DNA of 64,000 nucleotides, from positions 14,309 to 78,308 of IMG/VR virus record IMGVR_UViG_3300010400_000002; one strand, 5' to 3'. This stretch comes from a virus. Every line of letters begins with the position of its first letter. Position 1 is the first letter of the stretch. Both the position numbers and the translations under genes were made by a program. The notes beneath the pieces were generated by a model. It was not told where the DNA came from and did no database searches. It saw only the letters and a list, made by a program, of their open reading frames with translations. Positions 2,642 through 45,049 of this stretch are shown piece by piece.

Positions 2642-3475
2642 ATGGCAACTAACACAAAAGGTCTGGGGCAGAAAGCCAAAAACGCCGCTGCCGCCTCCGA
2701 CGATGAAACAATCGTAATCTCTTGGGTTGAGAACCAGTACTCAAAATTTGCCGGAAACCACACTTTACGCGCTTACCGCGATCCTGTGGAACGGCATAAA
2801 CTGATTGAACTGCGTGACCCCACTACCGCTACCAAAGAAGAGCCGTTAGGACAGAAAAAGCCTTACGTCATTCTTGGTGGCAAAACCATGAAACTGTACA
2901 TATCCAAGAACCCTTGGCACATGGCAGTTTACAAATTCATCATCGGTAACACCGAAGAGGAAGGACAGTGGCGTGGTCACCCCCGTTTCAACCCGGGCAA
3001 GAAGATTTTCACTATTGAAAACGTCACCGAAAAGGCTAAGAAAAATAACCTGAATCGCAAGCAGATTCGTGCATTGCAGACGAAAGTCGAGACAATGAAC
3101 CAAGATGCACTCATGCAGTTCGGGTTACTGTTTGGCTTCGACGGTAAGGAACTATCTTACGATGATGTGCTCGACGGTATCGAGGCTATCATTGAGACTC
3201 CGGCTGACAATAGCGAAAGTTTCTTCACTTGCGCAAACGTGAAAGAGGCTATCGAGAATCCAGACTTCGACTATATTGTGTTAGTTGCTGTTTTGAAGCA
3301 TAAGAAGGTGTTTATCTCGAATGATGGTGTATACAAGTACAATGGTGCTACCATCGCCGTCACCGACGATCAACTCGTAAAGTGGCTGAAGGATAACTCT
3401 ACCGTCTATATGACGCTGAAAGAAAAATACCTGGCGCAGACCAAGGTGGAAGAGCCTGACCCTGCTAAAGAATGA
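2642..3475 (+). CDS. conserved virion-module protein downstream of MCP
   Basis: 277 aa; C-terminal KKVFISNDGVYKYNGATIAVTDDQLVKWLKD resembles the crAss-like protein that follows MCP. Confidence 0.55.
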   Translation: MATNTKGLGQKAKNAAAASDDETIVISWVENQYSKFAGNHTLRAYRDPVERHKLIELRDPTTATKEEPLGQKKPYVILGGKTMKLYISKNPWHMAVYKFIIGNTEEEGQWRGHPRFNPGKKIFTIENVTEKAKKNNLNRKQIRALQTKVETMNQDALMQFGLLFGFDGKELSYDDVLDGIEAIIETPADNSESFFTCANVKEAIENPDFDYIVLVAVLKHKKVFISNDGVYKYNGATIAVTDDQLVKWLKDNSTVYMTLKEKYLAQTKVEEPDPAKE

Positions 3476-4146
3476 CGTGGCAACAGATTGCAGATAATGT
3501 GAATCGTAAGCTGGTTCAGTTTGCCTCCCCTCCTGTATTACCTGCGGAGATGGTGGGTTTACTGAATGAGGCTTACGATGCACTATTGACACAGTGGTGG
3601 CAGATGACTTTCGAAAGAGACGAGTTTGCTATCCAGTTGCTCACGCCGCTGAAGCAAGGTCCAATCTCCCCCACTTTAACAAGCGCCAATCACATTTCTA
3701 CGTTCGAAATTGATACGACGGTATTCCCAGGTGGATTAAGAGCAATTGCCTCCTTTCGTGGATATTTCAAGCAGTCATGCAGTGGGCTGTCAGCATGGAG
3801 GATGATCGAGTTTCTGTCAGACAATGACCTATCAGACCTCGAAAATCCATTGCGAATGCCTACCAATGACTTTCCACGCTATCGTATGTGGTTCAACACT
3901 ACTTCCTCAAAGAAGAAAGTGTCAATCTATTACGATGGGGATGCTCCGACCACTACTGAACTGTTTTATTACCGGCAGCAAACCATCCTCACTTCCATAA
4001 CTGGAAGCCCGGAGGTGGACCAAACAGGACACCGGCTGATAGTGAACAAAGCGGTAGCTATACAGTCAGGCACCAACGAGGATCAGCGTGAAGAGATATT
4101 TGAACGTGAAACCAACAAAGATTTACAAGTGGAGAATGCCTCATAA
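3472..4146 (+). CDS. putative head-tail adaptor/ring protein
   Basis: 224 aa; N-terminal helical pair (MVGLLNEAYDALL) and C-terminal ELFYYRQ...HRLIVNKAV fit P22 gp4-like adaptors. Confidence 0.55.
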   Translation: MTWQQIADNVNRKLVQFASPPVLPAEMVGLLNEAYDALLTQWWQMTFERDEFAIQLLTPLKQGPISPTLTSANHISTFEIDTTVFPGGLRAIASFRGYFKQSCSGLSAWRMIEFLSDNDLSDLENPLRMPTNDFPRYRMWFNTTSSKKKVSIYYDGDAPTTTELFYYRQQTILTSITGSPEVDQTGHRLIVNKAVAIQSGTNEDQREEIFERETNKDLQVENAS

Positions 4147-31743: not shown

Positions 31744-32145
31744 ATGGAGGAAGATCACTTAGAAGCAGCCGCGGCAGAAGAGAAATTTTCATTCGATCTT
31801 CTTTTGGCAGTGTTTCAGAAGTTGCCGGATGCGATAGTTATCCTTAATGAGGACAGAAAGATATTCAGGGTAAACCCACAGGCAGAGCTATTGTTTGGGT
31901 ATAATGAAATAGAATTAAAAAATAAACCCATTGAAATTCTTGTACCGGACTCACTGAAAGAACGCCACACTACGCATACTCAAACCTATGTAGATTCACC
32001 CTCATTACGTGCGATGGGAAGCGGTATTGAGTTGAAGGCAAAGAGAAAAAACGGAACAGAAATTCCTGTTGAAATAAATCTTAGTCCTGTGTCTACGGTT
32101 CGTGGTTTGTATGTGATTGCTGTAATCAGAAGAAAAGTAAAATAA
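31744..32145 (+). CDS. stand-alone PAS-domain protein (FixL-like)
   Basis: PDAIVILN..G-equivalent..VNPQAELLFGY..EL....IEILVP...RH...R.MG.G.EL.AKRKNG.EIPVEINLSP. Confidence 0.9.
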   Translation: MEEDHLEAAAAEEKFSFDLLLAVFQKLPDAIVILNEDRKIFRVNPQAELLFGYNEIELKNKPIEILVPDSLKERHTTHTQTYVDSPSLRAMGSGIELKAKRKNGTEIPVEINLSPVSTVRGLYVIAVIRRKVK

Positions 32146-32771: not shown

Positions 32772-32807
32772 TGGTGGCAAATTTTTTAATCCTACATTTA
32801 CAATCTC

Positions 32808-33179
32808 ATGGAGAAAGAAAACATCATCATTCACGTTCACAATGAAGGAATCATTGAGATAGGAATGATGTTGCAGAAGATTCTCCACTCACAAGAAATT
32901 ATTCTTCAAACTCTAAAACAAATTCAAATGACAAACGAAGAACTCAAAAAAGGACTCGATGATGTAAAAGCTACTCTCGACAGTATCGGTACAGAGGTTG
33001 ACAAAGTTGCAACCGAAACCAACACATTGAATTCAAAGATCGCTGATCTCGAAACTCAAATCGGGAATCTCGGTACTGTACCACAAGAATTACAGGATGC
33101 TTTCAATGCGGTAAAAGATCAAGCCGGTGTTGTTGCATCTAAGGTTCAGGCGGTGGATGCTCTTGTGCCTGACGCGTAA
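32808..33179 (+). CDS. coiled-coil protein (start may be 32928)
   Basis: Heptad pattern; last + strand gene before the terminator. Confidence 0.55.
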   Translation: MEKENIIIHVHNEGIIEIGMMLQKILHSQEIILQTLKQIQMTNEELKKGLDDVKATLDSIGTEVDKVATETNTLNSKIADLETQIGNLGTVPQELQDAFNAVKDQAGVVASKVQAVDALVPDA

Positions 33180-33207
33180 AGATTGTGTGTGTATGTGTTT
33201 AGGAGAG

Positions 33208-33236
33208 CGGGGTGGCAAATCAGCACCCCGTTTTTT
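33208..33236 (+). terminator. intrinsic terminator of the late operon
   Basis: CGGGGTG-GCAAATCAG-CACCCCG followed by TTTTTT. Confidence 0.8.
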
Positions 33237-33300
33237 ATTGAGGCAACTCAATCTGAAAGAGAAGTTTCTTTTGCTTCGGCGCAGTATCAATTCGGGGGGC

Positions 33301-33333
33301 AAAAAAAATGGATGATGTTTAGTCACCCATTTT
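33301..33333 (-). terminator. intrinsic terminator closing the RAMP/array transcript
   Basis: Minus strand AAAATGGGTGA-CTAAACA-TCATCCATTTT-TTTT; the stem is complete (one G-U) only on the minus strand. Confidence 0.75.
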
Positions 33334-33340
33334 AAACAGT

Positions 33341-33935
33341 ACCATAGCGGTGCGAACCCAACCATGCCAGCGCCTAACAGAACCATATCCAACAATACCG
33401 AGCCTTACACGATCACACCATACCGGCTTTCCAGCCCGTTCCATGCCATACCTCTACTTACATCAGCCAACCATACAGGACTAAAGCAAGCCATTGCTAA
33501 CCTATCCCGACCATACCGACTCTTTCGAGTCCGTACCCAACCGAACCATACCGAACACAAGCGAACCGCGCCGACGCCGAAGCTAACAATACCATTCCCG
33601 ATACTACCGCGCTCGACATAAGCTGACCAATCCATACCAAACCGGAGATAATTTTCCCGTTCCTTACCATACTCAACCGAACATTACCTAAGCCAGCCGT
33701 ACCCTGCATAACCGAAGCTGACCGAACCGACTGAAATTAATCAGTCCGTACCACGCCGTACACTACCATTCCAAACAAAATTGAACCGTATCCCGCCATG
33801 CCGAATCGAACCTTACCACAACACACGGAACACCACCATGCACTACCATACCGGCTTTTAAAAAGCCCGCACCAAACCAAAACTCAGCTAACCGGACAAA
33901 ACCGAACTCCACATAACCCCGCCCCGGCAAACCGG
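33341..33935 (-). ncRNA. array of six GGY-NN pentamer tracts separated by hairpins (putative gapped guide RNAs, VIPR-like)
   Basis: 103 in-phase pentamers by hand count, 55 with exact GGY and most others one mismatch away; tracts 33871-33935, 33750-33854, 33661-33730, 33535-33645, 33440-33519, 33341-33426; five junction hairpins. Confidence 0.85.
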
Positions 33936-33938
33936 AAT

Positions 33939-34565
33939 TTAATCTTCAATGACATCATAATTCTTAATAGCAAATCTTCCATATGACGGTCTGAAATCTC
34001 CAACGCCGCACAATCTTCCTGCCTGTACCAACGTGTCAATAAACAATGCCACATCAATATACTCAGGCAACTGAATCATGAATTGACATTTGCAAGTCCA
34101 TCCTGATTTTAATGCAGGACGAGTGCGATTAATGCCTGACCGCTGAATAACAACACGCCGACGATCTTCATAATCCCATTCTTTCTTTCCTAAAGAGCAA
34201 AGTGGAGTTAATGAGATTACTCCTGCTTTGAATAAGTCCATTGCCGACTTACGAGGCGAGCGAGGGTCTTGTTTGAACTTTGATGCAGCGATACAACTCA
34301 TGCGAAAATATTCACCCGGGATACAGAGAAATCCTTTATCATCCCGATAGACGTAGCTTTCGAGATCATCAGTTTTTTTAGCAGCAGAATTTTTTTTCGC
34401 TTTCGCTTTTTCATCTACTGCCTCTGCATTCCATCGGTGAAACAGCATGTCGGCTGTACCTTGAAATGTTACTTCAATCATGAACGGTTCTGAATGTTCA
34501 ATGACTTTCTTTGCGCCGTTTGTTGGCTCACTCACATTCTTAGCGAGTGTTTTTGCTGTACTCAT
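33939..34565 (-). CDS. solo RAMP/Cas7-like protein (Vipr-like)
   Basis: RAMP beta1 (MIEVTFQGTADMLFH), motif-II-like GFLCIPGEYFRMSCIAA, RTRP, C-terminal Gly-rich loop AGRLCGVGDFRPSYGRF. Confidence 0.8.
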   Translation of the reverse strand: MSTAKTLAKNVSEPTNGAKKVIEHSEPFMIEVTFQGTADMLFHRWNAEAVDEKAKAKKNSAAKKTDDLESYVYRDDKGFLCIPGEYFRMSCIAASKFKQDPRSPRKSAMDLFKAGVISLTPLCSLGKKEWDYEDRRRVVIQRSGINRTRPALKSGWTCKCQFMIQLPEYIDVALFIDTLVQAGRLCGVGDFRPSYGRFAIKNYDVIED

Positions 34566-40146: not shown

Positions 40147-40442
40147 TTAGAAGTTAATTCTTCTACTTGTGTTAGAATCTCCAATGCTTCCTTCACGGTT
40201 TCATCACGATCCTGTTTTACAAGTTCTATTTGCTCCATCAGGATTTCGGTGGTATTGATGTAACGGGCGATTGTATCTAAAAATTTATTCTCTCGGTCAA
40301 CATACGCTTTATTTGCTCCTTCCTTCGCAGCGTAATCTTTCAGGTACAATTCCTTTCGCTTTATTTCGTCAGCCACTTCTTCAAAAACTGATAACTGAAT
40401 ATGCTTGGCTCTCAAGTAATCGGTAGTGTCAAATTGCTTCAT
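40122..40442 (-). CDS. hypothetical protein between initiator and helicase
   Basis: Helical ORF overlapping both neighbours. Confidence 0.55.
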   Translation of the reverse strand: MKQFDTTDYLRAKHIQLSVFEEVADEIKRKELYLKDYAAKEGANKAYVDRENKFLDTIARYINTTEILMEQIELVKQDRDETVKEALEILTQVEELTSKWKAPASE

Positions 40443-41296
40443 CGTGGTTTATCCTCCTCGGCTATTTGTGGTGCTCCATGAATCATTTCGTTCATTTGAT
40501 GGTATCGCTGCGTGGCTGAAGTAATCTGGGTTTCATAGTGAATGCCGTTCGTGGTAAGCGGTCTTGTTTCTTTTGGGGACTCCTCCTCCCAGCACCTTTG
40601 ATTAATCCATGTCTGTAGGTGCTTCCATTCCGGAATAAATTTTCCAGGAATTGCAGAATCTTGTTGGCGTCGGAAAATTTGGTTTTTTAAAGCTGGCTCA
40701 AGTAGCGGTAGGGCTGTTTCCCAATCCGCATGCTTTTTCTTGAAGTTGTCAAACTCGGTTTTATTGCCGCGTTTATTTCCTTCGTATAATTTTCGGAAAC
40801 TATCAAACACTATTTCACTATTATCTAATCTATTCTTATCTAATCTATTCTTATGTTGCCGTTCCGTTGTCCCTTCCGTTGCAGTTCCGTTGGCAACGGA
40901 ATTTTCAGTATTATTATTTTCCGTTGAATTATATTGTTTTTTTCTTTTTTCGGCACTTTTTTCTCCTGCCTTCTTTGCAGACTCCCATGTTTTCAATCTC
41001 TTTTGAAGTCCTCTTGAAGTGAATTTGCCCCGAAACTCCTGAAACAAATCTATACGGATTGCATCCCGATACCATGTTAAAAAACGCGGTTCGTCCTTAC
41101 ATCCAATAGTTCCACAAAGCATCTGTAAATCGCCGTCTGTGCTGCTCCAAGAATAGTCCTCTTGGTTGCGCAGAACTTCAATCACATCCCAATAAATTCC
41201 CTTTGCCCAGTGGGTATGTATTTGCACCATCTTGAGGAGTTTTAGATCCCTCCCTGCGTTTGATTCGTGCCTGAACCAGTATGAGTCTGCAGCCAT
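40439..41296 (-). CDS. putative replication initiator (DUF4373/Lin1244-like N-terminus)
   Basis: YWFRHESNA..D.KL...GIYW.VIE.L N-terminus; FDSFRKLY and HLQTWINQRCWEEE C-terminus. Confidence 0.7.
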   Translation of the reverse strand: MAADSYWFRHESNAGRDLKLLKMVQIHTHWAKGIYWDVIEVLRNQEDYSWSSTDGDLQMLCGTIGCKDEPRFLTWYRDAIRIDLFQEFRGKFTSRGLQKRLKTWESAKKAGEKSAEKRKKQYNSTENNNTENSVANGTATEGTTERQHKNRLDKNRLDNSEIVFDSFRKLYEGNKRGNKTEFDNFKKKHADWETALPLLEPALKNQIFRRQQDSAIPGKFIPEWKHLQTWINQRCWEEESPKETRPLTTNGIHYETQITSATQRYHQMNEMIHGAPQIAEEDKPR

Positions 41297-41494: not shown

Positions 41495-42454
41495 TTATCG
41501 TGTTCTTATGAAGTTTTCCAATTCCTCAATATCCCCCTTCTCCCGTGTAACCATCTCCTTATATTTCTCAACATCAATCTGCTGCTGTATGTGAGATTCG
41601 ATAATCGAAGTAAGAACCTGGGGCTTCAGCGCATCTACTTCCCAGCAGGTCTTTCCAAATTTAGCAATGTACTTATCACTTCGTGAATCAGTAAGTTTCG
41701 TAGGGTTAGGTGGCAGTTTGTATTTTTTGATTTGCTGCATCGTCAAACCAATCTGGATGATTTGAAAAATGTCAGAAGCAACCAAATGGTACTCTCCCTG
41801 CTCAATCATGAAAGTTAATCGTTCACTTATATCACGAACCATATCTAACCCACTTGGGTCGTGATCTCCAAAATAAAGAATCGTAGTCATCCCTTCGTGA
41901 AGGCTGTTATTTAAAATGCGATTGTAGGCACTATACATCGCACTGGAAGAACTGTAACCTTTGTTAATGATTAGTTGGATGTGATACTTTTCGGTACTGC
42001 GTCGTAGTATTCCTGCAAGTGCATCTTTCTCGCTCCAAAGTTCAACGTGATTTGATTGTCCTTCTTGTCGGTCTAACCTATATTGGTCAATCGTGTCCTG
42101 TAACGCATGTTCAACACTGTTAACCGAATAAGGAATGTACGGTACTCTTCCGCGATCTTCAATAGCACCCCAATCAATGGTTCCACTGTAACGGCAATCA
42201 TCAACAATATCTCCCAATTTTTTATACGCTGTGATATGGTTTATGAATCCTTCTACGTGACCTACGAATTGATAATGAAGCTGCCGGAGAGTTAGAATAT
42301 AACCTTCTGCTGCGTACTCATCTACGATGGATATTATGTTGGCTACAACATCCTCCTTTCTTGTGCGCCACCATTTGATACTGCCGTCATCAAATTTGCA
42401 GCATACATTTATAGCGCCCGTTAATTTCCTATCTTCAAATTTCTCTTTAGCCAT
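41495..42454 (-). CDS. TOPRIM-domain protein (topo VI-A/DUF2399-like)
   Basis: Start MAKEKF; TLRQLHYQ, VELWSEKDAL, KGYSS, YFGDHDPSG, WEVDAL. Confidence 0.8.
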   Translation of the reverse strand: MAKEKFEDRKLTGAINVCCKFDDGSIKWWRTRKEDVVANIISIVDEYAAEGYILTLRQLHYQFVGHVEGFINHITAYKKLGDIVDDCRYSGTIDWGAIEDRGRVPYIPYSVNSVEHALQDTIDQYRLDRQEGQSNHVELWSEKDALAGILRRSTEKYHIQLIINKGYSSSSAMYSAYNRILNNSLHEGMTTILYFGDHDPSGLDMVRDISERLTFMIEQGEYHLVASDIFQIIQIGLTMQQIKKYKLPPNPTKLTDSRSDKYIAKFGKTCWEVDALKPQVLTSIIESHIQQQIDVEKYKEMVTREKGDIEELENFIRTR

Positions 42455-42459
42455 TTCGA

Positions 42460-42543
42460 AGCGAAGGGGGAACTCGAATCCCCGACCTATGCAGACCCAC
42501 TCCACGTAGAAACTGCGTCGCTCTACCAACTGAGCTACTTCGC
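42460..42543 (-). tRNA. tRNA-like RNA with aberrant extended anticodon arm (identity unassignable)
   Basis: Acceptor GCGAAG/CTTCGC, D-arm GCTCAGTTGGTAGAGC, T-arm GGGGATTCGAGTTCCC; 18 nt enclosed by GCAG/CTGC; no CCA. Confidence 0.65.
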
Positions 42544-42780
42544 TACAGGTTAGCTTTGCCTGTATTCATCAGAGAGTTTCCTTCTCCTCACTTTCAACGT
42601 TACAGGTGACGCGCCTTGCTTACATGAGTTCGCTTCGGACTCCATCCAATCTTACGATTGCTCATACGGAAAAAATCTTTAAAAAGAAGGATGCGAATGG
42701 TCACGGCAAAACTGTAATCTGTTCGCTGCAGTCGCACCCTCAACCGGAGTGCTTAACCTCCGGTGTATGGTTTGTAAGTT

Positions 42781-43413: not shown

Positions 43414-43818
43414 TTAATTGGAATTAACACGGTTAAACTCATTCTTCAAGGCACTAACAGAAGTCCTCACAAAATCCAACTGGTGAGTAATAGTCCGGCT
43501 TAATCTCTCTGCAACATTGTAAGCATACTCCGATTCGCTGCACTTAGCGGTGATATAATCCTTCACCACACTTGCCGGAACCCACTCCAACCGTCGCGCC
43601 TCCACGTTGAAAACAAATTGCTCATACGCTTTTGCTTTCTTATCACTCCACACCTTTTTGAATTCTGCCATCTGCGAATTGGTATAAGCCATGTAACCGG
43701 ATAACTGAGCTCCGTACTCTATCCATTGGTCAATAGTGGATAGTGACTGCATCGTTTCGGAGCAGAGGATACTTTCGATCTTTTTTAATTCTTCCAGGTG
43801 GTCAATCATCGGATTCAA
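43414..43818 (-). CDS. hypothetical helical protein of the recombination module
   Basis: ERLSRTITHQLDFVRTSVS..KNE, a Bacteroidota-phage motif. Confidence 0.55.
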   Translation of the reverse strand: MNPMIDHLEELKKIESILCSETMQSLSTIDQWIEYGAQLSGYMAYTNSQMAEFKKVWSDKKAKAYEQFVFNVEARRLEWVPASVVKDYITAKCSESEYAYNVAERLSRTITHQLDFVRTSVSALKNEFNRVNSN

Positions 43819-45049
43819 CTTTAGAGGAATAGAAATTAGACCATTCTTCTTGTGACTTAAACTTACTGTGATATTCCTTACCGTTCCAAATTAATTTCCA
43901 ATCATTCCAATCAACATCATCAGATGGAAGATCATAAGCATCTACACCGAAAGTATTAGCACCTAATGAGGTTGCAAATTGTAATGTAAAAGGAAAACAT
44001 TTCAGGTTGTTTGCTGCAAGTATTTTAAAGCCATGCTCTAAAATATCAATAACTTCTTTCTCAGATTTGTCATTTCCTAAAATCATTTTCAATCGTCCTG
44101 AGTGAATGAAGTTATGACAGTAATGACACAATGGTTCAATGGAAAGTATCTCACATATACCAGTGCGATAGTCAATTTTCCAAAACTCATGTGCTTCTAA
44201 CCACTCATGTTTTTTTGCTTGGGATTTATGAATGCCGCAGGCAGCGCAATGATAGTCAGTTGAAGCATATACTAATTGGCGTTCACTATTCCACCAATCA
44301 TCTCCCATAATTTCTCTTGGGGCAACTCCATGAAGCGGTTTAGGGATATGAGGGTGGCACAGTATTTCAGGTTTAAGAATTTTCCTTACCGGCGTTCCTG
44401 ATTTTACGATCTCATTCCAATCATCAATCATTCCATGCACTTTGATGAAGTCCACAAATCCTTTAAGTGAATGGATAAGTTTCGTTTCGTAAGCTGCATC
44501 CCACTCGAAAGGAAATTCTTCATGGGTGATGGTAGCTGATAGTTCTTTCTTCTCCTGAATGAAAAATACATCGTAACAGAACATCGGAACATCAGCCATG
44601 AACATATACCATAGGTGCTGTGTCTTATCCATGTACGCTTCATAGGAAGGCTTGGTGCGCGTTGTTTTAAAGTCGTGAATAATCCCGGGGCACAAGCAAT
44701 CTACTTTCCCCCTCACGTTGCAGATGATTCCGTTGACCTCAATTTCTTTGTTCACCCAAACTTCTGTCGCATTGGGTGTTGGTAGCGTTTGATGGAAGTC
44801 AGTGAGAACTTTGAGAACATCATTTGAAAGAAATTCTGCCTCTACGGTAATCCCTCCATACGCTTGCGCATATTCGTCGAATGGGTTTTCAAGAAACTTA
44901 TGTACCGCCGTTCCAAAGTCTTTCTCAAAAGTTTTCTGATCTCTCCCTTCAAGGTAGTCAATAAACTTCTGTTGGTCAAGTCCCCACTTTTCAGCAAGGA
45001 AGTCATCGAACCGTTCCAACTTAGACACGGAGATATTAAGCGATAGCAT
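43802..45049 (-). CDS. PD-(D/E)XK exonuclease fused to an HNH-like domain
   Basis: ISVSKLE, FGTAVH, GKVD...IHDFKTT...QHLWY; C-terminal HCAACG..LEAHEFW..PLCHYCHNFIH. Confidence 0.75.
   Translation of the reverse strand: MLSLNISVSKLERFDDFLAEKWGLDQQKFIDYLEGRDQKTFEKDFGTAVHKFLENPFDEYAQAYGGITVEAEFLSNDVLKVLTDFHQTLPTPNATEVWVNKEIEVNGIICNVRGKVDCLCPGIIHDFKTTRTKPSYEAYMDKTQHLWYMFMADVPMFCYDVFFIQEKKELSATITHEEFPFEWDAAYETKLIHSLKGFVDFIKVHGMIDDWNEIVKSGTPVRKILKPEILCHPHIPKPLHGVAPREIMGDDWWNSERQLVYASTDYHCAACGIHKSQAKKHEWLEAHEFWKIDYRTGICEILSIEPLCHYCHNFIHSGRLKMILGNDKSEKEVIDILEHGFKILAANNLKCFPFTLQFATSLGANTFGVDAYDLPSDDVDWNDWKLIWNGKEYHSKFKSQEEWSNFYSSKVESDD

What the first reader, a model, noticed from the sequence alone, without database searches (positions are those of the whole stretch)
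33341..33854. Three tracts with unidentified targets (2, 4, 6)
Tract 2 (33750-33854): AC.GT.CT.AT.AA.AA.GA.GT.CC.AT.GA.GA.TT.AC.AC.GA.CC.AT.CT.AT (e.g. TVLIKKEVPIEELTTEPILI). Tract 4 (33535-33645): CA.GA.AT.GA.CA.GA.GC.GA.GA.TA.AT.AT.CG.CT.GC.CG.TA.TG.AA.AT.AA (e.g. QEIEQEADEYIIRLARYWNIK; ExEAD weakly recalls the third Zn ligand of ImmA-like proteins). Tract 6 (33341-33426): AT.GG.GA.CA.AT.AG.TA.GA.AT.CA.AT.GA.TT.CG.AC.AT (e.g. IGDHISYEIQIDFRTI). If the code is right, their targets are candidate unknown defence or competitor genes.
Basis: inference. Interest (0 to 1): 0.72.

Follow-up and report, generated by a model that had tools for sequence, protein, structure and literature searches.

The report
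Phage VIPR guide-RNA array, targets sought
The three tracts are guide RNAs of a recently described phage system (VIPR) that reads DNA two bases out of every three; two of them point at genes of rival mobile elements and the third has no target yet.

Summary
Window 33297-33933 is a non-coding array of 5-nt units on the minus strand (GGY plus two variable bases). It holds six tracts, each followed by GG(U/A)AC and a small hairpin, and ends in a hairpin-plus-U8 terminator. It starts 6 nt after the stop of a 208-aa gene (33939-34565, minus).

A profile of that protein matches the solved SUSP1 Vipr protein (E 6.7e-10). Its predicted fold matches Cas7/Csm3. So this is a VIPR system, described in two 2026 bioRxiv preprints.

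- **Tract 2:** the first 11 units (22 informative bases, plus one more) match perfectly the motif IDEFTTDPILI of a major-head-protein family of other phages. This holds in 9 of 19 family loci, three of them from Bacteroidota MAGs.
- **Tract 4:** the first 13 units (26 bases, plus one more) match perfectly a BT4734-like primase-module gene on two metagenome contigs. A 65%-identical homologue lies in an integrative element that carries Septu.
- **Tract 6:** no convincing target.

Skip bases fall on codon wobble positions in both matches. In both, the 3' 8-9 units do not match, so whole-tract identity is 68-72%, below the published 80% threshold.

Verdict: a new member of a known kind, of moderate interest.

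The parts
33939..34565 (-). vipr gene (208 aa, P0001), a Cas7-like RAMP protein
   Evidence: The profile of 36 homologues hits PDB 36pp_D 'SUSP1 Vipr protein' at E 6.7e-10, sharing the G-loop GVGD(F/W)RPxxGRF. AF2 model has pLDDT 81.5. Foldseek top hits are type VII Cas7 and Csm3, E 6.5e-6 and up. No Pfam hit; phrog_4652, function unknown.
33874..33933 (-). vrRNA1 guide tract, 12 units (not part of the finding)
   Evidence: Unit parse.
33853..33873 (-). Tail 1: GGUGCG plus a 6-bp hairpin
   Evidence: Fold.
   Evidence: 22/22 informative bases, plus the next one, match the IDEFTTDPILI site. Skip base is at the wobble position.
33753..33797 (-). vrRNA2 3' units 12-20: no target found
   Evidence: 0 matches in viral contigs for its 9-unit pattern. 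At the null level against the capsid and primase loci.
33729..33752 (-). Tail 2: GGUAC plus a 6-bp hairpin
   Evidence: Fold.
33664..33728 (-). vrRNA3 guide tract, 13 units (not part of the finding)
33644..33663 (-). Tail 3: GGAAC plus a short hairpin
   Evidence: This stem pairs better on the plus strand (a G.U pair there against an A.C mismatch on the minus strand).
   Evidence: 26/26 informative bases, plus the next one, match on L094 and L095. The peptide is DYIIRLARYCNMK and the skip base is at the wobble position.
33573..33578 (-). 6-nt unit 14 of tract 4: a one-base slip of register exactly where the match ends
   Evidence: Units 14-21 show no match at any offset from -4 to +4.
33538..33572 (-). 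vrRNA4 3' units 15-21: no target found
   Evidence: The 8-unit pattern gave 53 loci and none extends.
33518..33537 (-). Tail 4: GGUAC plus a 5-bp hairpin
33443..33517 (-). vrRNA5 guide tract, 15 units (not part of the finding)
33425..33442 (-). Tail 5: GGAAC plus a 4-bp hairpin
33297..33343 (-). GGUAC followed by an 11-bp hairpin and U8: probable intrinsic terminator of the vipr-array transcript
   Evidence: Folds. The consensus terminator scan did not list it.

Best explanation
The region is the guide-RNA array of a VIPR (Viral Interference Programmable Repeat) system carried by a 78-kb phage.

**Anatomy (shown).** The vipr gene (33939-34565, minus) encodes a Cas7-like RAMP protein. The array follows on the same strand as six vrRNAs. 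Each is a run of 5-nt units (a GGY scaffold plus two variable bases) followed by GG(U/A)AC and a small hairpin tail. The array closes with a terminator.

**Mechanism (from the published work on SUSP1 and P. fulva, inferred here).** Vipr subunits coat the vrRNA and hold the GGY triplets. They present the NN pairs, which read double-stranded DNA as NN-x-NN-x. The skipped base usually lies on a codon wobble position. Binding silences transcription of competing mobile elements.

**Targets (shown in this window).**
- Tract 2, with its first 11 units, reads a conserved site of the major head gene of another phage family found in Bacteroidota.
- Tract 4, with its first 13 units, reads a BT4734-like gene next to a D5-type primase-helicase gene of a small mobile element.
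- The 3' 8-9 units of both long tracts match nothing, and tract 6 has no target in the data searched.

**Guide length (inferred).** The working guide is about 11-13 units counted from the vrRNA 5' end. The long tracts are either two abutting guides or a guide plus unused units.
For: **Protein.** HMM match to the SUSP1 Vipr structure, E 6.7e-10, with a shared C-terminal G-loop. Cas7/Csm3 fold: 80 PDB matches at E<=0.001, top hit 8z4l_F at E 6.5e-6 and TM 0.55.

**Array.** 5-nt GGY/NN units on the gene's strand. Five inter-tract hairpins have different stem sequences behind a constant GG(U/A)AC-GG lead. A hairpin plus U8 closes the array.

**Conservation of the pairing.** In 18 of 19 viral contigs that encode a 51-65% identical protein, lag-5 tracts that are G-rich on the gene's strand directly flank the gene. 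The 19th has one about 770 nt downstream.

**No self-targeting.** The best hits of all six guides in the phage's own 78,308-bp genome are 57-75%, at the shuffled-guide null. The preprint reports the same for its systems.

**Tract 2.**
- An 8-unit seed gave 38 viral loci.
- About ten of these are one major-head family: phrog_267 at 7.7e-33 and PF19821.
- A 22-base pattern gave 4 of 4 genome-contig hits at the same motif, 3 of them in Bacteroidota MAGs.
- 9 of 19 family loci match 22/22. They comprise 7 distinct sequences in which all 10 skip positions vary and no informative position does.
- By my arithmetic from the 38 seed hits, about 0.002 chance extensions by 7 further bases are expected.

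**Tract 4.**
- A 20-base seed gave 2 metagenome loci. Both extend to 27 consecutive informative bases, in frame.
- The gene carries PF08800 (1.4e-8) and PF22292 (1.1e-20). Its neighbour carries DUF5906 and Pox_D5.
- With up to 3 mismatches, 1 of 54 genomes of the family of G001 has a match and the reversed-pattern control gave 0. That match is 23/26, in a 65%-identical homologue.
- The homologue sits beside an integrase, an RteC-like gene, a D5 primase-helicase, and Septu PtuA/PtuB (7.3e-65 and 2.4e-41).
Against: - Over the whole tracts the NN identity is only 27-29/40 (tract 2) and 30/42 (tract 4). That is 68-72%, under the >=80% the preprint uses to call natural targets.
- Only 51 of 97 units are exact GGY.
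- No vap accessory gene lies next to vipr, although the preprint says loci typically have one.
- There are no expression data. No RNA run holds the region.
- Tract 6 has no target.
- One tail hairpin pairs better on the plus strand.
- Both matched guides are antisense to the target mRNA, so RNA targeting is not excluded by these two cases.
- The exact tract-4 target was not seen in the one soil run that holds the phage.
- The significance figures are my arithmetic under uniform base composition, not shuffled-pattern scans of the collections.
Confidence: 0.87

Rival explanations
1. Each long tract is one full-length guide of 20-21 units. The true targets match it throughout but are absent from the collections searched. 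The capsid and primase-module hits are only relatives of the true targets.
For: The preprint's natural targets mostly match over the whole vrRNA. For tract 4, the residues upstream of the matched site differ between the two homologues seen (SFSKGARH against EFVQDKRH), so a variant that fits cannot be excluded. The collections were searched only by exact seeds.
Against: - **Tract 2:** a full match inside the capsid family would have to replace R64, D66 and Y71. These are invariant in 10 of 10 aligned members, and the guide's bases at those positions encode none of them.
- **Tract 4:** the match stops exactly at the 6-nt unit, and no register from -4 to +4 restores it.
- The 9-unit 3' pattern of tract 2 has 0 matches in viral contigs.
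- SUSP1 vrRNAs have 9-16 units, so 11-13 units is a normal guide length.
Confidence: 0.2
2. The tracts are vrRNAs, but the two partial matches are coincidences with conserved protein motifs. All three targets remain unknown.
For: Whole-tract identity is under the published 80% threshold. NN composition is biased (AT 19 and TC 16 of 97 units), which raises chance matches to common codons. No shuffled-pattern control could be run on the collections.
Against: - Runs of 23 and 27 consecutive informative bases were found.
- Shuffled guides reach at most 7 perfect units on the 218 kb of capsid-bearing contigs.
- Both matches are in frame with the skip at the wobble position, in genes of mobile elements, as published for VIPR.
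- The reversed-pattern control gave 0 hits in 54 genomes where the real tract-4 pattern gave 1.
- The seeds of tract 6 and of the 3' part of tract 4, which behaved as chance, never extended.
Confidence: 0.1
3. The array is not a set of guides. It is a binding platform (RNA or DNA) for a ring or filament protein that recognises the ACC/GGU triplets, as TRAP binds spaced GAG triplets.
For: This was my first reading from the anatomy alone: triplets spaced by two bases, over 600 nt, between convergent genes.
Against: The adjacent protein is homologous to Vipr, not to TRAP-like proteins. The variable bases carry target information, with 23- and 27-base matches. The published system explains every part.
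Confidence: 0.02

Closest known systems
SUSP1 / Pseudomonas fulva VIPR (called type II in bioRxiv 10.64898/2026.04.26.720920)
   Same: A Vipr RAMP protein, with sequence homology to the solved SUSP1 Vipr. GGY/NN 5-nt units on the vipr strand. An array of several vrRNAs downstream of the gene. Carried by a phage. Reads targets by the 1-nt-skip rule with the skip at the wobble position. No self-targeting. Targets lie on competing mobile elements.
   Different: No vap gene next to vipr. Tails are simple 4-6-bp hairpins behind GG(U/A)AC, not the pseudoknotted tail described for the SUSP1 clade. Tracts reach 20-21 units, against 9-16. The scaffold is much more degenerate (51 of 97 exact GGY). Only the 5' 11-13 units of the long tracts match. 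The host is probably a soil Bacteroidota, not an enterobacterium or pseudomonad.
Staggered vrRNA arrays (legend of fig. S18 of the same preprint; figure not seen)
   Same: vrRNAs that abut without a tail between them, with a one-base offset at the junction. Tract 4 loses its match exactly at a one-base slip of register.
   Different: This array has hairpin tails between tracts. Tract 2 loses its match without any slip. I could not see the figure, so the comparison rests on the legend alone.
Cas7 backbone of class 1 CRISPR effectors (Csm3, type VII Cas7)
   Same: The fold. A C-terminal glycine-rich loop. One subunit per short, regular segment of guide RNA, with bases periodically withheld from pairing.
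   Different: No CRISPR repeats, no other cas genes, and no adaptation genes in the 78-kb genome. The period is 5 nt with only 2 read bases, against 6 nt with 5 read bases.
TRAP-type binding sites (spaced triplets; recalled, not tested)
   Same: Conserved triplets separated by two variable bases.
   Different: The protein is unrelated, and here the variable bases, not the triplets, carry the information.

Membership tests
VIPR system | Vipr protein: a minimal RAMP (RRM core, G-loop, thumb) homologous to known Vipr | tested here: met
   Profile against PDB 36pp_D 'SUSP1 Vipr protein': E 6.7e-10 over 143 profile positions, including the G-loop. The model matches Cas7/Csm3. The thumb was not inspected separately.
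VIPR system | vrRNA: tandem 5-nt units of a conserved GGY and a variable NN, flanking vipr on its strand | tested here: met
   97 units in six tracts, starting 6 nt after the vipr stop. G/G/Y frequencies are 76/78/93% and 51 of 97 units are exact GGY. The same arrangement occurs in 18 of 19 related loci.
VIPR system | A conserved structured 3' tail after each repeat tract | tested here: met
   Five tails of GG(U/A)AC plus a GG-closed hairpin with differing stems. With only five copies there is no statistical covariation test. It is not the pseudoknot of the SUSP1 clade.
VIPR system | Accessory vap gene in an operon with vipr (described as typical, not universal) | tested here: not met
   The array follows the vipr stop directly. 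Upstream is a 262-nt gap, then an MT-A70 methyltransferase gene. Six vap families for seven types suggests that one type lacks vap, but the type table is in supplements I could not open.
VIPR system | Targets obey the 1-nt-skip rule at >=80% NN identity, mostly in coding DNA with the skip at the wobble position | tested here: inconclusive
   100% over the 5' 11 units (tract 2) and 13 units (tract 4), in frame. Only 68-72% over the whole tracts. Nothing for tract 6.
VIPR system | No self-targeting of the source contig | tested here: met
   The six guides reach 57-75% at best in the 78,308-bp genome, equal to the shuffled-guide null.
VIPR system | vrRNAs are expressed, processed and bound by Vipr; the complex binds dsDNA and represses transcription | not testable with these tools
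   No RNA run holds the region. Needs bench work.
CRISPR-Cas | Array of identical direct repeats with unique contiguous spacers, plus cas genes | tested here: not met
   No identical repeats: the inter-tract hairpins differ in sequence. The only 'CRISPR-associated' PHROG hit in the window is a weak one (2e-6) in an HNH protein at 43802-45049. No other GGY array exists in the genome.

The most novel reading that the evidence does not exclude
In this vap-less, hairpin-tailed VIPR clade the working guide is set from the vrRNA 5' end to about 11-13 units. Tracts of 20-21 units are two guides joined without a tail, and a one-base slip of register (the 6-nt unit) can mark the junction.

The phage would use such guides in two ways. 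One is against rival phages, through the capsid gene. The other is to shut down the replication module of small integrative elements that carry anti-phage defence (Septu in one relative). That second use would be RNA-guided counter-defence by silencing the carrier rather than the defence gene.
Probability: 0.3. Interest if true: 0.6.

Novelty: new member of a known kind. Interest (0 to 1): 0.45.

Why it matters
VIPR was described only in 2026 preprints and characterised in enterobacterial and Pseudomonas phages. This locus contributes four things:

- It shows the same logic in a soil phage that probably infects Bacteroidota, with a simpler tail and no accessory gene.
- It gives two concrete, testable guide-target pairs: a 33-bp site in a major head gene and a 39-bp site in a primase-module gene.
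- It raises a question the preprints do not settle in the parts I read: how guide length is set when a tract is longer than its match.
- The protein family is very large and unnamed in the databases (6629 proteins at E<=1e-5, none of the 120 listed with a Pfam domain), and at least once mis-annotated. Recognising it would improve phage annotation.

Tried and rejected
**Alternative readings and general checks**
- TRAP-like protein-binding array. This was my first reading and I dropped it.
- Rfam on 32800-34400 at E<=10 gave only four chance-level eukaryotic lncRNA/snoRNA rows. Rfam on six related loci at E<=0.01 gave nothing, so no hammerhead is recognised between tracts there.
- blastn of the array against 50,697 phage records found no match.

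**Tract 6**
- Units 1-8: 13 viral loci, best 22/32, at chance.
- Units 3-10: 19 loci. L102 and L105 (the same sequence) reach 19/20 over units 1-10. However, the 321-aa ORF there puts the skip base off the wobble position, and about one such extension is expected among 19 seeds. I treated this as chance.
- The 10-unit pattern with <=1 mismatch: 0 of 401 sampled Bacteroidota genomes.
- With <=3 mismatches in G001-G003: 4 hits against 2 for the reversed control.
- With <=2 mismatches: 0 of 54 genomes of the family of G001.

**Tract 4**
- The 5' 8 units in viral contigs: 4 loci, none extends.
- The 3' 8 units: 53 loci, none extends.
- The 13-unit pattern in G001-G003: 0.

**Tract 2**
- The 3' 9 units: 0 matches in viral contigs.

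**All guides and sub-guides**
- Against 19 vipr loci, 15 capsid-bearing contigs (217,667 bases), the two primase contigs and 38 kb of G442, only the two reported matches exceed the null.

**Other searches**
- The primase-module protein in 401 Bacteroidota genomes: only 2 distant matches at 33-35% identity.
- No RNA holder is listed for the region.
- Contigs of the one soil DNA run that holds the phage, laid on L094, gave only three pieces of 38-83 nt, each under 90% alike.

Full report
**What is there.** The window is most of a 78,308-bp phage genome.
- Late and structural genes run on the plus strand up to 33179.
- Replication and early genes run on the minus strand from 57583 down to 33939.
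- Between the two blocks lies a 600-nt non-coding stretch that is C-rich on the plus strand (GC skew about -0.45).
- This stretch has a strict 5-nt period. Lag-5 identity is 0.42-0.46, against 0.264 (sd 0.051) for the whole window.

Read on the minus strand, the stretch is a chain of 120 units that stays almost entirely in register. It holds six tracts of 12, 20, 13, 21, 15 and 16 units of the form GGY+NN. Each tract is followed by GG(U/A)AC and a 4-6-bp hairpin whose stem differs from tract to tract.

**What it is.** The array begins 6 nt after the stop of a 208-aa minus-strand gene (33939-34565).
- Its product has no Pfam domain.
- It belongs to a very large unnamed family: 6629 proteins at E<=1e-5 among 6724 candidates.
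- A profile of 36 members matches one solved structure, PDB 36pp 'SUSP1 Vipr protein', at E 6.7e-10. The match includes the C-terminal loop GVGD(F/W)RPxxGRF.
- The AlphaFold model (pLDDT 81.5) matches Cas7 proteins of type VII and type III CRISPR complexes.
- In 18 of 19 viral contigs that encode a 51-65% identical protein, 5-nt-periodic tracts that are G-rich on the gene's strand directly flank the gene, upstream, downstream or both.

Two 2026 bioRxiv preprints describe exactly this system as VIPR.
- From 10.64898/2026.04.26.720920 I read the abstract, all Results, Methods sections 18, 20, 26 and 27, and passages found by term.
- From 10.64898/2026.10.15.759431 I read the abstract and sections 8 and 17.
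- Supplements of both are closed.

According to them, Vipr is a minimal RAMP protein and vrRNAs are GGY/NN repeats with a structured 3' tail. The NN pairs read double-stranded DNA with one base skipped between pairs, usually the codon wobble base. Natural targets lie on satellites and rival phages, and guides do not hit their own contig.

**Self-check.** None of the six guides finds anything in the phage's own genome above a shuffled-guide null. The best hits are 18/24, 24/40, 18/26, 24/42, 19/30 and 20/32. No second array exists in the genome.

**Tract 2.**
- Its 3' nine units gave 0 matches in viral contigs.
- Eight units from the 5' half gave 38 loci. About ten of these are one protein family in which the match extends to units 1-11 plus one base, 23 consecutive informative positions.
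- The gene encodes a roughly 300-aa major head protein (phrog_267 at 7.7e-33; PF19821) that follows a head maturation protease gene.
- The site encodes IDEFTTDPILI. The guide is antisense to the gene, and every skipped base is a wobble base.
- A 22-base pattern found 4 places in 185,579 species genomes, all at this motif. Three are in Bacteroidota MAGs and one is on a 2.7-kb contig of a Methylobacter MAG.
- Across 19 family loci, 9 match 22/22 and the rest 18-21/22. The 9 comprise 7 different sequences in which all ten skip positions vary and no read position does.
- Units 12-20 do not match. They cannot match within this family, because they would have to replace R64, D66 and Y71, which are invariant in 10 of 10 aligned members.
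- Whole-tract identity is 27-29/40.

**Tract 4.**
- The 5' eight units gave 4 viral loci, and none extends.
- The 5' ten units gave 2 metagenome contigs carrying the same gene. There, units 1-13 plus one base match, 27 consecutive informative positions.
- The match ends exactly at the 6-nt unit, and no register shift from -4 to +4 restores it.
- The site encodes DYIIRLARYCNMK in a 405-aa protein with a BT4734-like N-terminal domain and DUF6965. The upstream gene has DUF5906 and Pox_D5 domains.
- Allowing 3 mismatches, 1 of 54 genomes of the bacterial family that holds two of the capsid-bearing MAGs has the site at 23/26. The reversed-pattern control gave 0.
- That gene is 65% identical over 298 residues. 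It lies in an integrative element with this order: tyrosine integrase, RteC-like gene, D5 primase-helicase, the target homologue, then cargo. The cargo includes Septu PtuA/PtuB and an HKD-SNF2 protein.
- Other guides do not hit that contig.

**Tract 6.** Two 8-unit seeds in viral contigs, and mismatch-tolerant scans of 401, 3 and 54 Bacteroidota genomes, gave nothing that exceeds chance or lies in frame. Its target remains unknown.

**How it most likely works.**
- *Shown here:* the gene, the array, their shared strand, the tails, the terminator, the absence of self-hits, and two in-frame perfect sub-guide matches to genes of other mobile elements.
- *Inferred from the preprints:* Vipr coats the vrRNA, the complex binds DNA, and it represses transcription.
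- *Inferred here:* only about 11-13 units counted from the vrRNA 5' end are used. The preprint's SUSP1 vrRNAs have 9-16 units, and it mentions 'staggered' arrays in which one vrRNA abuts the next with a one-base offset (legend only). That fits the slip at the end of the tract-4 match, but tract 2 has no slip.

**Limits.**
- No shuffled-pattern control could be run on the collections, so the chance estimates (about 0.002 for tract 2 and 1e-4 for tract 4) are my arithmetic from the number of seed hits.
- There are no expression data.
- The VIPR type could not be assigned, because the type table and figures are in supplements I could not see. Those supplements may already include this clade.

**Verdict.** The finding is real and correctly decoded, but the system is already described. 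This is a new member with some distinctive anatomy: no vap gene, hairpin tails, and long tracts that match only in part. Two of the three 'unidentified' targets now have candidates.

Noticed in passing
window 40781-40900: This is the second lag-5 peak. It consists of tandem 15-nt repeats and several CCGTT-containing short repeats inside the minus-strand ORF 40439-41296, which hits a replication initiation protein family (phrog_2562). It looks like iterons of the phage origin within the initiator gene.
   Followed up: partly
window 42458-42544 (-): ARAGORN calls a tRNA-like gene with a four-base anticodon (tcta). It overlaps the start of the topoisomerase-like ORF 41495-42529. It may be a false call or a frameshift-suppressor-like tRNA.
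   Followed up: no
window 31744-32145 (+): A 133-aa PAS-domain protein (PF00989, 3.9e-13) is encoded among small late-region genes of the phage.
   Followed up: no
L171 (GenBank OR003939.1, Phage DSL-LC04) 2998-3615: This is the only close relative of the Vipr protein among 50,697 deposited phage records (65% identity). It is annotated there as 'helix-turn-helix transcriptional regulator', which is probably a mis-annotation. A 147-aa ORF follows it with overlapping stop and start, and could be an accessory gene that the window's locus lacks.
   Followed up: partly
L002 2221-2960 (related vipr locus): The array lies upstream of vipr and is about 740 nt long. Its tracts are separated by longer elements of about 60 nt, each with two hairpins whose stems differ between copies. 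Rfam recognises no hammerhead or other family there.
   Followed up: partly
L178 1948-15071 (G442:C13): An integrative element with an integrase, an RteC-like gene and a D5 primase-helicase. It carries Septu (PtuA 7.3e-65, PtuB 2.4e-41), an HKD+SNF2 1199-aa protein with an FHA domain, a DUF3326 protein and an AdoMet-decarboxylase-like protein. It appears to be a mobile defence island.
   Followed up: partly
protein family of P0001: Most of the 120 listed relatives sit on contigs of only 1-3 kb. This suggests that assemblies break at the repetitive arrays that flank vipr, which would hide these loci from context-based surveys.
   Followed up: no
L075 (3-Mb contig of a Bacteroidota MAG): The capsid gene that carries the tract-2 site is open for only 209 codons here, against about 300 elsewhere. 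It may be a decaying prophage copy.
   Followed up: no
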